A stretch of 33,053 nt of DNA from contig JARQWU010000098.1 in the NCBI GenBank assembly GCA_040182905.1, positions 1 to 33,053 on the forward strand. The letters are read 5' to 3'. Under the pieces are notes generated by a model. That model ran no database searches, was not told the origin of the DNA, and saw only the letters and a program-made list of their open reading frames with translations. Of the stretch, positions 5,382-23,581 are shown piece by piece. This stretch comes from Barthelona sp. PAP020. Lineage: Eukaryota. The position numbers and the translations under genes were made by a program. Numbering within the stretch: position 1 is the first letter of the stretch; each line of letters begins with the position of its first letter.

Positions 5382-5493
5382 GTGATTTATTCTTTAAATT
5401 ACAATGAGTTTTGATAAAATTATGATTGATTGTTTGTTTGTTTGAGAAAGTGAGATTTTTTTTTTTCTTTTTGTTCAAAAATTGGCCCCACAA

Positions 5494-6066
5494 ATGAGTT
5501 CAAACGAAGCAAAAAAGGTAGATGGAGATATTGATGTGATGAATGAAGTTCTAAATAGCATGCCTTTGGATTATTTAATTTCTGCACCTATTGTTGCAGC
5601 TAATCGTGCCAATGAGGAAATGCAAAAAAGTACATTAAATTTTATTGAAGATTTATTGGATGAAAACCGATGTTTCAAAACTGCAACTTTCACTGTTCCT
5701 TCCAACAATCAGTATTCATCTAATGATCTCAGCTTAACTGTGCCCATTGCTTCATTGATTAATCCTCCAAGTATGATTGTTAGAGAAGTTGGAATTGATT
5801 TTTCTATGGAAGTTGGCCATACTGAAGTTGATACTTCATCAACAAATATGAAAGCCAAAGGAGGGGTTGATTTACCTTTATTAAAAAAGCCTATTGTTTC
5901 TGGAAAAGTTTCTTCTTCTCAAAGAAGTGAAAGAACAACAGATAGATCAGCTAAATACAGATTAAAACTTATTGCTACACAAGATGAAGTACCTGAAGGT
6001 TTGGCCAGGTTAAATAATATTCTTTCGCAATCAATATATGCCGTTCCAAAATCTAAAAAATTATAA
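5494..6066 (+). CDS. DUF2589-family protein (bacterial-type)
   Basis: Motifs MPLDYLISAPIVAA, VPIASLINPPSM..IDFSMEV and VSGKVSS...RTTDRSAKY...PEGLARLNNIL match the DUF2589 pattern as I recall it. First ATG at 5494. Confidence 0.78.
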   Translation: MSSNEAKKVDGDIDVMNEVLNSMPLDYLISAPIVAANRANEEMQKSTLNFIEDLLDENRCFKTATFTVPSNNQYSSNDLSLTVPIASLINPPSMIVREVGIDFSMEVGHTEVDTSSTNMKAKGGVDLPLLKKPIVSGKVSSSQRSERTTDRSAKYRLKLIATQDEVPEGLARLNNILSQSIYAVPKSKKL

Positions 6067-19198: not shown

Positions 19199-20122
19199 TT
19201 ACAATTCCGGTGATCTCTTATTATCAATCATTTCATCAAAAATTTGATCATTGTCATGCTTTTCAGAAAAATTTTCTTCTTTATCAAAATAATTTAATTT
19301 TCTTTTGACAATATCTTCGGTTATTTCACTGTCAACATCACATTCTTTCACAAATTTACGAACAAAATCAACAACATAATTTGCTACTATTCCCACCGTT
19401 TCTTTGTTTCCAAATAATGGTAAATTTAAGGGAAAATTTAGAGTATTGAATTTAAAACGACATGGCTTGGCCGTTTCAGGAAATTCAAAATTTTTGATTT
19501 GATAATTCGCCCTTGCTTCAGTTTTTGAAACAAAATATTCAATTAACAACAGTCTTTCAATGATTTTAACGATAATTCCATGTGAAACTTCATTCATTCG
19601 TAAACTTTGTAAAAATGAGAGTGATCCACCATGATTGGATGTTTGGTCAAAAATACTGTTTTTTGACCTTGTTCGAATGGTGACTAAGCCTTTATTTTGT
19701 GCTCGTTTTTTCAATTTTCTGTATGATTTTGGGGTTAAACATTTTGTAAAGTATATTTTTTGTTGATTTAAATTAAACAAAAACACTTTTATTTGTTTTT
19801 TCAACATTTTCAAAGATATTTTTGTTAAAGAGGGTTCAATTAATAAAATAAGCTCCTCATCTACTTTTTTTCGCAATAATTTCCTTCGAATAAATTTTGA
19901 AACTTCAATTTCCAATAAATATTCAATATTTGTTGTATTATTTGGTTTTAACTTATCAATTGGCCTAGGTTGAACAATTTCACATGACAAATCTTCTTTG
20001 GATTTGAATGATAATGCGGATAAATTCCTAAATATCTCAAAATTACTTGATCGAGACATTGGATAACATGCCATTGTTTCAAAACATATCACACAAAATG
20101 AAAACAAATCCAAACATGGCAT
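19199..20122 (-). CDS. hypothetical protein (start ATG 20122 or 20074)
   Basis: About 300-aa ORF; no family recognised. Confidence 0.6.
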   Translation of the reverse strand: MPCLDLFSFCVICFETMACYPMSRSSNFEIFRNLSALSFKSKEDLSCEIVQPRPIDKLKPNNTTNIEYLLEIEVSKFIRRKLLRKKVDEELILLIEPSLTKISLKMLKKQIKVFLFNLNQQKIYFTKCLTPKSYRKLKKRAQNKGLVTIRTRSKNSIFDQTSNHGGSLSFLQSLRMNEVSHGIIVKIIERLLLIEYFVSKTEARANYQIKNFEFPETAKPCRFKFNTLNFPLNLPLFGNKETVGIVANYVVDFVRKFVKECDVDSEITEDIVKRKLNYFDKEENFSEKHDNDQIFDEMIDNKRSPEL

Positions 20123-20223
20123 ATAAACGGTGCATAGAAAAATAAACAAAAAAAGATGGGAATTATAATAAAATAACTGAAATTTATGATTGAATGAAAA
20201 TAAAAAAAAAACTGAATTAACGA

Positions 20224-20359
20224 CTAATTATGTTAGAAAATGAACAATTGATTCAAAAAAAAAAGCAATCAGAAAGCAATTTCACACCATGAAATACAAA
20301 AGTCTGAAGACCGTTGCGCTTAGGTATCATCATTGCAAGATATAATAACATAAACAAAC
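20224..20359 (-). other. 136-nt snoRNA-hosting intron (intron 2 of the non-coding host)
   Basis: GTTTGT...TTCTAAC-ATAAT-TAG enclosing a C/D snoRNA. Confidence 0.72.
20265..20336 (-). ncRNA. box C/D snoRNA, snR73/U35 (SNORD35) functional homologue
   Basis: Terminal stem GCAA/UUGC, box C AUGAUGA, D' CAGA, D CUGA. D' guide GCAACGGUCU-U pairs with conserved LSU UAGACCGU(C)GUG; the D'+5 base pairs with the first C of AGACC (yeast 25S Cm2959). Confidence 0.85.
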
Positions 20360-20369
20360 TTTTTAAAAA
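20360..20369 (-). other. 10-nt non-coding micro-exon TTTTTAAAAA
   Basis: Flanked by a CTAAC-TTAA-TAG acceptor and a GTTTGT donor, between two snoRNA introns. Confidence 0.65.
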
Positions 20370-20493
20370 CTATTAAGTTAGATTAGTTCATGAATTTGAA
20401 AAATGAAAAAATTCAGATATAAAGTTGTCGTCAGTGAATCAGACATATGCTTGAAAAAAAACATCATCAAAATTATGTCAATATAAAACGTAC
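20370..20493 (-). other. 124-nt snoRNA-hosting intron (intron 1 of the non-coding host)
   Basis: GTACGT...TCTAAC-TTAA-TAG enclosing a C/D snoRNA. Confidence 0.72.
20409..20474 (-). ncRNA. box C/D snoRNA, snR74/U27 (SNORD27) functional homologue
   Basis: Box C UGAUGA (20469-20464), D' CUGA, C' UGACGA, D CUGA (20416-20413). D' guide CAAGCAUAUG is exactly complementary to 18S CAUAUGCUUG; D'+5 selects yeast 18S Am28. Confidence 0.9.
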
Positions 20494-20541
20494 TTTTTTA
20501 AAGGAAAAAAATCATTCTGGGTTTTTTTGAAACATTTCATT

Positions 20542-20589
20542 TTTTTCAAATAATTGGATTATTTTTTATCTTATTTTTCAAATAATTGG
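20542..20589. repeat. 16-nt direct repeat TTTTTCAAATAATTGG x2
   Basis: Copies at 20542-20557 and 20574-20589 in the divergent region between the snoRNA host and the LRR gene. Confidence 0.6.
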
Positions 20590-20666
20590 GGTTAATTTCT
20601 TCACGAATATAAAATTTATGTGAAAATTTGTTTGATTTAATTGTTTTGGTGAAATAATTTTTTTGA

Positions 20667-21272
20667 ATGAACCATTTGTCACGTGGTATTGTGGATTCTT
20701 TATATCAATTAACGATAGATACTAGTGTTGATGCTTCTGCACAAAATTTTACGGAATTGGTTGAACTTGTTGACAAAAATTGTTTTGACAGAGTGAGATT
20801 TTTAGATATTTCAAAGAATTTTATCACAACAATAGAAACTAATTATTTTTTGATGTTTCCAAATTTGATTGAACTTAATTTGACTGCAAATAATTTAACA
20901 AACTTGGATATCAATATACCTAATTCATTGAAAAAACTGTATTTAGGATATAATAGGATGACAAATATTCTCATTGAAGGGGGTAATTGTTTAGAAATAT
21001 TGAATATTTCCATAAATTTTTTGATGGATGTTGAGTTTTTGCAAAACATACAATTGCCACAATTAAAAGTCTTGTCATTGAATCACAATAAACTAATTTT
21101 TGATAAATTTATAAACACAATAAAGGGAATTGATTTCTCTCAACAGTTTCCTAATTTAATTAGGTTTCATTTGATAGATGCTTTTGAACATCCATTAATT
21201 TTGGAAGAACAAATATGTTTGCAAGAAATTTTTGAAAAAAAAGGTGTTATTGTTACATTAAATCTAGAATAA
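20667..21272 (+). CDS. leucine-rich repeat protein
   Basis: LxxLxLxxN repeats: FLDISKN, LIELNLTAN, LKKLYLGYN, LEILNISIN, LKVLSLNHN. Confidence 0.88.
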   Translation: MNHLSRGIVDSLYQLTIDTSVDASAQNFTELVELVDKNCFDRVRFLDISKNFITTIETNYFLMFPNLIELNLTANNLTNLDINIPNSLKKLYLGYNRMTNILIEGGNCLEILNISINFLMDVEFLQNIQLPQLKVLSLNHNKLIFDKFINTIKGIDFSQQFPNLIRFHLIDAFEHPLILEEQICLQEIFEKKGVIVTLNLE

Positions 21273-22865: not shown

Positions 22866-23581
22866 TTATTCAACATTCTTTAAATCAATGGGATTGTTTT
22901 CAACCTCTAATTTGGCTTCACCAGCATCAACATCCACAACTTCATATTTTTTGAAAATTTTGAAGGGTCCTCCCATTGGAACAAAAGTTCTGTTGAAATG
23001 AGTATTTAATAAAGTACCAGCAAAACCATAAAAACCAGTTGCAGAAATTACAGTTTCAGAATATGCAGCTAAATGATGAGCCCATTCCCATCCTTTGAGA
23101 ACTTGCAAGGAAAGTCCAAAGAATAAGAAATCAATTTCAACAAAAATTATAAAAAGGTAGGTGTTGGTCTCAGTCGCTCCAATTGTCATAACAACAGAAA
23201 AAATAAGATACCCAACAAAAGCAAAACCAAGTTGATTTGCATCTACTGCAGCTTTAACATCAGCACCATAATAACCAAGAGTCATCATCCAAGTCATGGC
23301 AACAGCAAACCAAAAGAATCCGTAACTATAATATTAGTAAATCATTTGAACGAAAGCAATTACCCAAAAAATGCAGTACCTCCAAAAGTGTTATTGAGAC
23401 GTAAGTCCATATAACCAGCAACAATTTGTGCAAGAGCTCCTAAAAATACACACCAAGGAACAATGGCAGCGGTATTATTGGTAATACCCAATTTTGCAGT
23501 ACAAGCTACACAAGTAACCATAGATAAACCGAATAAACCCAAAGGGGATGGGTTGCCGTAAGGTTTTTGATTGTCAGTCAT
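22866..23581 (-). CDS. GPR1/FUN34/YaaH (SatP/AceTr) acetate-succinate channel, 225 aa; exons 23581-23364 and 23325-22866
   Basis: Signature NPSPLGLFG and GALAQIVAG. Splicing restores NTFGGTAFFGYGFFW. About six hydrophobic helices. Confidence 0.9.
23326..23363 (-). other. 38-nt spliceosomal intron in the SatP gene
   Basis: GTAATT...TACTAAT-ATTA-TAG; removal restores the frame and the conserved motif. Confidence 0.9.

What the first reader, a model, noticed from the sequence alone, without database searches (positions are those of the whole stretch)
20265..20474. snR74-like then snR73-like guides in the same order as the yeast snR78-72 polycistron
Seen: upstream guide CAAGCAUAUG-U-CUGA and downstream guide GCAACGGUCU-U-CAGA. 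Known: the D+5 rule places methylation at 18S A28 (snR74/U27) and 25S C2959 (snR73/U35), yeast numbering. In S. cerevisiae these are adjacent and transcribed snR74 then snR73. Inference: either very deep conserved snoRNA microsynteny, implying an ancient intronic cluster, or coincidence. I found no further C/D members immediately up- or downstream. The second guide predicts the organism's LSU reads AGACCGUUG rather than AGACCGUCG.
Basis: partly seen in the sequence, partly recalled or inferred. Interest (0 to 1): 0.8.

Follow-up and report, generated by a model that had tools for sequence, protein, structure and literature searches.

The report
Intron-borne rRNA guide pair, yeast order
Two small RNA genes predicted to mark ribosomal RNA sit side by side in a single-celled eukaryote, each likely inside its own intron and in the same order as in a known fungal gene cluster, but five other studied protists keep the two apart, so the shared order is more likely coincidence than ancient inheritance.

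Summary
On the minus strand lie two box C/D snoRNA genes: U27/snR74-like (20474-20409), then U35/snR73-like (20337-20265). Each C box + guide + D' pattern occurs once in the window and in 0 of 100 shuffles. Their registers match published Plasmodium guides for 18S Am28 and LSU Cm2959.

New here: each gene sits in a predicted spliceosomal intron (124 and 136 nt), split by a 10-nt exon. The branch-point/acceptor signals match this genome's own introns, one of which a transcript-derived protein supports. A fungal locus shows the same layout.

The organism is probably not a fungus; a metamonad is the weak best guess. The synteny claim is poorly supported. The pair is unlinked in Dictyostelium, Plasmodium, Trypanosoma and Leishmania, and Tetrahymena's U27 is unclustered. 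Among 50 metagenomic U27 loci with enough flank, 2 (both fungal) have U35 next. Two kinetoplastid-like contigs hold both, five to six genes apart. A chance match to yeast is about 1-40% per genome under assumed numbers. Native rRNA and splicing were not tested. An earlier scan note found the fungal trio, not this locus.

The parts
20409..20474 (-). Box C/D snoRNA gene 1, U27/snR74-like, predicted to guide 18S Am28 (yeast numbering); ends inferred from a 3-bp A-U terminal stem
   Evidence: same guide and register as Plasmodium PFS4
20464..20470 (-). Box C of gene 1 (TTGATGA)
20444..20453 (-). 10-nt guide CAAGCATATG; fifth base upstream of D' is T20447
20439..20442 (-). Box D' of gene 1 (CTGA)
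20428..20434 (-). Candidate box C' of gene 1 (CTGACGA)
   Evidence: read from sequence; inferred
20413..20416 (-). Box D of gene 1 (CTGA)
20265..20337 (-). Box C/D snoRNA gene 2, U35/snR73-like, predicted to guide LSU Cm2959 (yeast numbering); terminal stem GCAA/TTGC
   Evidence: same register as Plasmodium PFS17
20327..20333 (-). Box C of gene 2 (ATGATGA)
20308..20318 (-). 11-nt guide CGCAACGGTCT; fifth base upstream of D' is G20311; two changes from the usual guide predict an LSU site reading AGACCGUUG(C/U)G
20303..20306 (-). Box D' of gene 2 (CAGA)
20284..20290 (-). Candidate box C' of gene 2 (ATGGTGT, two mismatches to consensus)
   Evidence: read from sequence; weak
20269..20272 (-). Box D of gene 2 (CTGA)
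20370..20493 (-). Predicted intron 1 (124 nt): donor GTACGT, branch CTAAC 20381-20377, acceptor TAG; holds gene 1
   Evidence: GTACGT occurs 3 times on both strands of the window
20360..20369 (-). Predicted 10-nt exon TTTTTAAAAA between the two introns
   Evidence: inferred
20224..20359 (-). Predicted intron 2 (136 nt): donor GTTTGT (less certain), branch CTAAC 20236-20232, acceptor TAG; holds gene 2
   Evidence: GTTTGT occurs 29 times in the window
19199..20149 (-). Downstream ORF of unknown function on the same strand; the snoRNA introns may lie in its 5' leader
   Evidence: no Pfam family, no usable Atlas hit

Best explanation
Two box C/D guide snoRNA genes (U27/snR74-like, then U35/snR73-like), each predicted to lie in its own spliceosomal intron of one minus-strand host transcript, are predicted to direct 2'-O-methylation of 18S A28 and LSU C2959, and their yeast-like order is likely an independent arrangement rather than shared ancestry. 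Shown: boxes, guides, registers, splice-like signals and their spacing. Inferred: a host RNA starting upstream of 20494 is spliced twice, leaving a 10-nt exon; the spliced exons carry no reading frame into the downstream ORF, so the host is non-coding or a 5' leader. From established C/D biology (not tested here): the lariats are debranched and trimmed to the Snu13/Nop56/Nop58/fibrillarin-bound core, and fibrillarin methylates the rRNA base paired to the fifth nucleotide upstream of box D'. Odds by step: real guides about 0.95; intron-encoded about 0.85; two separate introns rather than one donor with two acceptors about 0.65; order not inherited from a common ancestor with fungi about 0.78.
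For: Guides; registers equal to Plasmodium PFS4 and PFS17; site equivalences across yeast, human, Arabidopsis, Dictyostelium. Introns: two branch+acceptor motifs in the 517-nt intergenic stretch, against 6 of 5000 shuffles with two and 20 such motifs on both strands of the whole window. The branch A lies 35 and 36 nt after each D box and the donors 23 and 26 nt before each C box (arithmetic). Three protein-gene introns have the same signal geometry and restore reading frames; spliced Rab7 is 209 aa, the length and junction of transcript-derived P0106. Independent order: different chromosomes in Dictyostelium (4 vs 5), P. falciparum (11 vs 13), T. brucei (TB8Cs2C1 vs TB9Cs2C1) and Leishmania (LM36 vs LM35/LM22; read from the gene names); Tetrahymena TtnuCD28 listed without a cluster; U35 follows U27 within 280 nt in 2 of 50 loci, both fungal; Hoeppner and Poole found no homologous snoRNAs in any of 22 LECA-age introns; chance match 0.8-41% per genome under assumed numbers.
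Against: No RNA data: splicing, expression and methylation are unshown. Neither gene reaches an Rfam gathering score. The intron 2 donor GTTTGT differs from the three protein-gene donors (GTATTT, GTAATT, GTATGA) and is common in the window. Guide 2 has an A-C mismatch to the usual LSU site (-14.5 vs -20.6 kcal/mol for the variant). Against coincidence: the same pair, order and one-guide-per-intron layout occur in fungal L035 with a 6-nt exon; two kinetoplastid-like contigs hold U27 upstream of U35 in one cluster; given one downstream neighbour, the chance that it is U35 is only 2-5%. The metagenome sample is redundant (24 of 56 matches form one similarity group) and holds no identified relative of this organism.
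Confidence: 0.6

Rival explanations
1. The U27-then-U35 intronic pair is inherited from an ancestor shared with fungi (near LECA) and was broken up in most other lineages.
For: Same pair, order and one-guide-per-intron layout as fungal cluster I. Both families trace to LECA by target site. Kinetoplastid-like L031 and L054 hold U27 upstream of U35 in one cluster, plus a guide whose target overlaps that of snR75. Luo 2013 reports the cluster in Basidiomycota and Rhizopus, so it is older than Ascomycota.
Against: Unlinked in Dictyostelium, Plasmodium, Trypanosoma and Leishmania; unclustered U27 in Tetrahymena. Canzler 2018 dates the cluster to the root of Ascomycota, in conflict with Luo. None of snR72 or snR75-78 is adjacent here. 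The kinetoplastid co-clustering has a 6-18% chance under assumed numbers and is not kept in trypanosomatids. A yeast-like locus L021 lacks snR73 in 1292 nt after snR74, so the link is labile.
Confidence: 0.2
2. One donor (20493) is used with two acceptors (20370, 20224), or splicing is stepwise, so both guides can be released from one 270-nt intron; GTTTGT is a weak or unused donor.
For: GTACGT is rare in the window (3) while GTTTGT is common (29). Stepwise or alternative-acceptor splicing and exon skipping are reported for fungal snoRNA hosts.
Against: GTTTGT sits 26 nt before box C, matching the 23 nt of intron 1, and 10 nt after the first acceptor.
Confidence: 0.2
3. The two guides are an intron-less dicistronic transcript cut by nucleases, as in S. 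cerevisiae or Giardia, and the splice-like signals are chance or relics.
For: AT-rich DNA; Giardia ncRNAs are described as single or dicistronic units; Dictyostelium C/D genes are mostly intergenic clusters.
Against: 6 of 5000 shuffles give two branch+acceptor motifs, and both sit at the same distance after a D box.
Confidence: 0.1
4. Gene 2 is a decayed or retargeted guide: the native LSU keeps AGACCGUCG and the A-C mismatch weakens or abolishes methylation.
For: Published U35-type guides read YACGACGGUCU; the duplex with the usual site is weaker.
Against: All boxes and the terminal stem are intact. Both guide changes fit a real LSU variant, AGACCGTTGCG, seen in 38 of 86 variant loci including eukaryotic L139.
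Confidence: 0.08
5. The pair came from a fungus by lateral transfer or contamination.
For: Only fungi show the adjacent pair among the loci examined.
Against: Guide 2 ends GGTCT-T-CAGA like Plasmodium and kinetoplastid U35, whereas fungal L035 and L036 end GGTCA/GGTCG with other D' boxes. The introns carry this genome's own short branch-to-acceptor spacing. No fungal name appears among the named hits for two window proteins.
Confidence: 0.02

Closest known systems
U27 / snR74 / SNORD27 (Rfam RF00086), with Plasmodium PFS4 and Tetrahymena TtnuCD28
   Same: Guide CAAGCAUAUG directly before N + D' box, 5'-half position, about 66 nt.
   Different: Guide is only 10 nt (preceded by a U run where others extend it by GA); below the Rfam gathering score (18.5 vs 52 bits); weak terminal stem.
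U35 / snR73 / SNORD35 (Rfam clan CL00056), with Plasmodium PFS17 and TB9Cs2C1
   Same: Guide ending CGGUCU + N + D' box in the same register as PFS17.
   Different: Two guide changes (CGCAACGGUCU against CACGACGGUCU); compact 73 nt without the long 3' segment of fungal and trypanosomatid forms; no Rfam snR73/SNORD35 match.
Fungal snoRNA cluster I, snR78-77-76-75-74-73-72, intronic form (PMC3596301, PMC2780460, PMC5824354)
   Same: snR74 then snR73, one guide per intron, very short exon between, host without a long reading frame.
   Different: Only two of seven members; non-fungal host; no sequence likeness beyond boxes and guides was shown; homology of the host locus untested.
UHG/gas5-type non-coding snoRNA host genes
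   Same: Host whose exons have little coding potential and whose introns carry the product (described).
   Different: Introns of 124-136 nt in a genome whose ordinary introns are 36-38 nt; host may be the 5' leader of a protein gene. Human U27 and U35 sit in different hosts (recalled, no call).
Kinetoplastid mixed C/D and H/ACA clusters (L031, L054)
   Same: U27 upstream of U35 on one strand.
   Different: Not adjacent (six and five snoRNA-like units between, 0.84-0.96 kb), intron-less polycistronic type, and unlinked in Trypanosoma and Leishmania.

Membership tests
Box C/D methylation-guide snoRNA | Box C near the 5' end and box D near the 3' end, 60-100 nt apart | tested here: met
   gene 1 box C has U at the R position
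Box C/D methylation-guide snoRNA | Antisense element of 10 nt or more directly upstream of D or D' | tested here: met
   10 and 11 nt before D', judged against conserved sites, not native rRNA
Box C/D methylation-guide snoRNA | Complementarity to the organism's own rRNA | not testable with these tools
   no genome held, no run listed
Box C/D methylation-guide snoRNA | Expressed, bound by fibrillarin, target methylated | not testable with these tools
   needs RNA data and RiboMeth-seq
U27/snR74 (RF00086) | D' guide in register for 18S Am28 | tested here: met
   identical guide and spacing to PFS4 and to the SNORD27 consensus
U27/snR74 (RF00086) | Rfam gathering score | tested here: not met
   18.5 of 52 bits; all 14 SNORD27 matches in other U27-like loci also fell below 52, so the threshold is a poor test here
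U35/snR73 (CL00056) | D' guide in register for LSU Cm2959 | tested here: met
   same register as PFS17; two guide substitutions
U35/snR73 (CL00056) | Match to the Rfam snR73 or SNORD35 model | tested here: not met
   not among 13 matches at E up to 10; assignment is functional (same predicted site), not by model score
Intron-encoded snoRNA host gene | Donor, branch point and acceptor around each snoRNA, matching the genome's own introns | tested here: met
   second donor is the weakest element
Intron-encoded snoRNA host gene | Spliced host transcript observed | not testable with these tools
   no RNA run listed
Fungal cluster I (snR78-72) | snR74 directly followed by snR73 | tested here: met
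Fungal cluster I (snR78-72) | Other members (snR75-78, snR72) in the same transcript | tested here: not met
   no further C..D candidate between the flanking genes
Fungal cluster I (snR78-72) | Descent from the same ancestral locus (pair kept in intervening lineages) | tested here: inconclusive
   unlinked in four protist genera and unclustered in a fifth; co-clustered, non-adjacent in L031 and L054; no relatives of this organism available

The most novel reading that the evidence does not exclude
[quoted passage not shown] It would be a case of snoRNA gene order and intronic position kept across eukaryotic supergroups, which the published survey did not find, and would make the fungal snR78-72 cluster an expansion of an ancient core.
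Probability: 0.2. Interest if true: 0.8.

Novelty: new member of a known kind. Interest (0 to 1): 0.47.

Why it matters
The guides themselves are ordinary, LECA-age families. Two things are worth having. First, an intron-poor protist seems to keep long introns specifically to house snoRNAs, using the same one-guide-per-intron, micro-exon design as fungi; a search for Metamonada + snoRNA + spliceosomal intron + branch point listed 0 papers, though that library is incomplete. Second, the locus gives a cheap test of whether any snoRNA gene arrangement goes back to LECA, which Hoeppner and Poole (PMC3511168) answered in the negative for intron positions. The guide also makes a sharp prediction about a two-base change in a conserved LSU helix.

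Tried and rejected
No whole genome is held for this window, so snR72, snR75-78 and rRNA genes could not be sought. No sequencing run was listed; this is no evidence on expression. A viral-collection scan for 18S rDNA gave 3 loci, none with an Rfam match. Lineage: the UCH-L3 search gave nothing closer than 41-43%. The Rab7 top named hit to a skoliomonad is inflated by a duplicated gene model and was rejected as evidence. The delta-tubulin tree joins the window to a skoliomonad with SH-aLRT 22 on long branches, quick method only, so it is not support. The bacterial promoter scan is not relevant. Folding either snoRNA alone gave no signal (z -1.31, -0.24), as expected for C/D RNAs. Arabidopsis U27/U35 positions could not be read because the supplement was cut when stored. 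Entamoeba has a U27 homologue but the passages showed no U35 homologue. My recollection that TB10Cs1C1 is the trypanosome U35 was wrong; it is TB9Cs2C1. A DOI from memory fetched an unrelated paper. My first U35 pattern missed the fungal snR73 genes and was widened. The downstream ORF found no family; the deep profile search was never run. Pocket search of the PDI-intron hairpin against one LSU fragment gave no convincing target. Look-ups of earlier findings by place, sequence and two word sets showed nothing.

Full report
1. The observation. The stretch 20265-20474 lies in an AT-rich gap between two divergent protein genes: an unknown ORF on the minus strand (19199-20149) and an LRR gene on the plus strand (20667-21272). 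On the minus strand there are two box C/D units. Unit 1 has box C TTGATGA at 20470, guide CAAGCATATG at 20453-20444, one spacer base, D' CTGA, and D CTGA at 20416-20413. Unit 2 has box C ATGATGA at 20333, guide (C)GCAACGGTCT at 20318-20308, one spacer base, D' CAGA, D CTGA at 20272-20269 and a GCAA/TTGC terminal stem. Each C+guide+D' pattern occurs once in the window and in 0 of 100 shuffles. Rfam gives no match at gathering level and only weak local ones (SNORD121A E 0.006, TtnuCD28 E 1.3, SNORD27 E 2.8; no snR73 or SNORD35 among 13). A loose C..D scan listed 23 candidates in the window; only these two fall in this intergenic gap.

2. Targets. Published Plasmodium guides PFS4 (18S Am28) and PFS17 (equivalent of yeast LSU Cm2959) have the same guide-to-D' register as units 1 and 2 (passages and tables of PMC2656528). 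Site equivalences snR74 = U27 = Am28 and snR73 = U35 = Cm2959 are tabulated in PMC8817022 and PMC3511168 (passages). Guide 2 differs from the usual guide at two places. It pairs with the usual site at -14.5 kcal/mol with one mismatch, and with AGACCGUUGCG at -20.6 (11 bp). That LSU variant is real: 86 loci in the genome collection carry AGACCGTTGYG, mostly Asgard archaea and Chloroflexota by title, 38 of 86 with GCG. One, L139, is a divergent eukaryotic LSU fragment (Rfam LSU_rRNA_eukarya, E 4.5e-112). This shows the prediction is feasible; it does not show that this organism has it, since its rRNA was not available.

3. New: both genes sit in predicted introns. A scan for donor..CTAAY..YAG patterns returned 7 hits in the window, two of which bracket the snoRNAs exactly: 20493-20370 (GTACGT..CTAAC TTAATAG) and 20359-20224 (GTTTGT..CTAAC ATAATTAG), leaving a 10-nt exon. 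The genome's own introns look the same. Removing 36 nt from Rab7, 38 nt from a GPR1/FUN34 gene and 137 nt from a PDI-like gene extends their frames from 26 to 209, 73 to 225 and 241 to 477 aa, each with ACTAAY 6-7 nt before the acceptor end. A transcript-derived protein has the 209-aa spliced Rab7. Two branch+acceptor motifs in the 517-nt gap occur in 6 of 5000 shuffles, and the whole window has 20 on both strands. The branch A lies 35 and 36 nt after each D box and the donors 23 and 26 nt before each C box (arithmetic). The motif was chosen after seeing the sequence, so these figures overstate certainty somewhat. The weak point is the second donor (GTTTGT, 29 copies in the window). The spliced exons give no upstream ATG in frame with the downstream ORF, so the host is non-coding or that gene's 5' leader.

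4. The organism. It is a gene-dense, intron-poor eukaryote of about 30% GC with a delta-tubulin. No fungal name appears among the named hits for UCH-L3 (72 hits, best 41-43%) or delta-tubulin (33 hits). The best named delta-tubulin hit is Eukaryota sp. TZLM3-RCL (32%), a skoliomonad of the metamonad BaSk clade (passages of PMC11316075). The tree does not support that join and the Rab7 hit is an artefact. Short branch-to-acceptor spacing is typical of metamonads (recalled). I put non-fungal at about 0.9 and metamonad at about 0.6.

5. Is the order ancient? In fungi snR74 precedes snR73 in cluster I, and in most fungi each member has its own intron in a non-coding host (passages of PMC3596301 and PMC2780460). 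Canzler 2018 dates the cluster to the root of Ascomycota (passages), while Luo 2013 reports it in Basidiomycota and Rhizopus; an unchecked earlier scan note also reports the trio in an early-diverging fungus. Outside fungi: Dictyostelium CD18 on chromosome 4 and CD23 on 5 (supplement rows); P. falciparum chromosomes 11 and 13; T. brucei TB8Cs2C1 and TB9Cs2C1, Leishmania LM36Cs2C1 and LM35Cs3C6/LM22Cs1C1 (supplement rows of PMC13487219; chromosomes read from the names; 7 of its 18 files were not searched); Tetrahymena TtnuCD28 intergenic with no cluster label in an admittedly incomplete library (one supplement file not searched). Arabidopsis could not be read. Human hosts differ (recalled). Hoeppner and Poole found no homologous snoRNAs in any of 22 LECA-age introns (section 8 read; abstract).

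6. Metagenome test. One scan for C box + U27 guide + D' covered 26 of 64 parts of the collection and gave 127 matches in 123 loci. I kept 56 matches in 54 loci as U27-like and dropped 71 that lacked an extended guide, a purine at box C or a downstream D box. Of 50 loci with at least 280 nt downstream, 2 have a U35 guide within that distance; of 30 with at least 400 nt, the same 2. Both (L035, L036) are fungal by their Rfam neighbours (run on 20 chosen loci). L035 shows an snR74 intron, a 6-nt exon and an snR73 intron, the same design as the window (read by eye). L031 and L054, flanked by trypanosomatid H/ACA families, hold U35 959 and 843 nt downstream with six and five snoRNA-like units between. 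Yeast-like L021 ends at snR74. The sample is redundant (24 of 56 matches in one group), most loci have no assigned lineage, and none is a known relative of this organism, so the test is weak for protists.

7. Chance. With 10 ordered adjacent pairs in the three fungal clusters, and assuming 20-60 guide families and 3-20 adjacent pairs per genome, at least one match arises in 0.8-41% of reshuffled genomes. A scan over many genomes will flag such matches. Kinetoplastid co-clustering has a 6-18% chance under similar assumptions. These rest on assumed numbers. Weighing them against the shared design, I give inherited order about 0.2.

8. Mechanism and verdict. Most likely a minus-strand transcript is spliced twice, the lariats are trimmed to two C/D snoRNAs, and these direct fibrillarin to 18S A28 and LSU C2959. 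The boxes, guides and signals are shown; splicing, processing and methylation are inferred from established C/D biology. It works like fungal cluster I and UHG-type hosts but is not filed as a member of cluster I, because five of seven members are absent and common descent is unresolved. It is a new member of a known kind, with a modest chance of being a real exception to the view that snoRNA arrangements do not survive across supergroups. Searches for prior reports: (listings only unless cited above); none of the listings or passages I saw described this pair outside fungi.

Noticed in passing
window 10337-10201 (-), hairpin about 10310-10250: The PDI-like gene's predicted intron is 137 nt, like the snoRNA introns and unlike the 36-38-nt ordinary ones. 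It holds one hairpin with an internal loop followed by an ATA triplet, resembling a single-hairpin H/ACA-like RNA. Fold z -1.86, 11 of 200 shuffles as good; best relevant Rfam hit PsiU1-6 at E 2; no target found in one LSU fragment.
   Followed up: partly
window 20538-20592: A 16-nt segment TTTTTCAAATAATTGG occurs twice, 32 nt apart, between the snoRNA host and the divergent LRR gene; possible promoter element. The 11-nt core also occurs at 1513 and 29856 inside ORFs.
   Followed up: partly
window 5482-6066 (+): DUF2589 protein (Pfam E 4e-22), a family I recall as mainly bacterial; possible lateral transfer.
   Followed up: no
window 22866-23581 (-): GPR1/FUN34/YaaH family gene split by a predicted 38-nt intron; splicing gives 225 aa.
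   Followed up: partly
L031 1-1795 and L054 1-1534: Kinetoplastid-like snoRNA clusters that bring together H/ACA families from different T. brucei clusters (TB11Cs4, TB9Cs4, TB6Cs1) with U27, U35 and a U15/snR13-like guide; L031 looks like a 1.67-kb tandem unit.
   Followed up: partly
L139 1-547: A divergent AT-rich eukaryotic LSU rRNA fragment on a 2-kb contig inside a bacterial genome bin, carrying the LSU variant that guide 2 predicts.
   Followed up: partly
L127-L212: The 23S helix variant AGACCGTTGYGARAC is frequent among Thorarchaeota and Heimdallarchaeota and in Caldilineaceae, by record titles.
   Followed up: no
L078 945-2066: An AT-rich eukaryotic locus with SNORD31, snoR38 and U27 in a row; P. 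falciparum has U27, U31 and snR38 homologues within 5 kb on chromosome 11. A second candidate for conserved U27 neighbours.
   Followed up: no
L021 1320-2077: Yeast-like cluster with snR76, snR75 and snR74 but no snR73 in the next 1292 nt.
   Followed up: no
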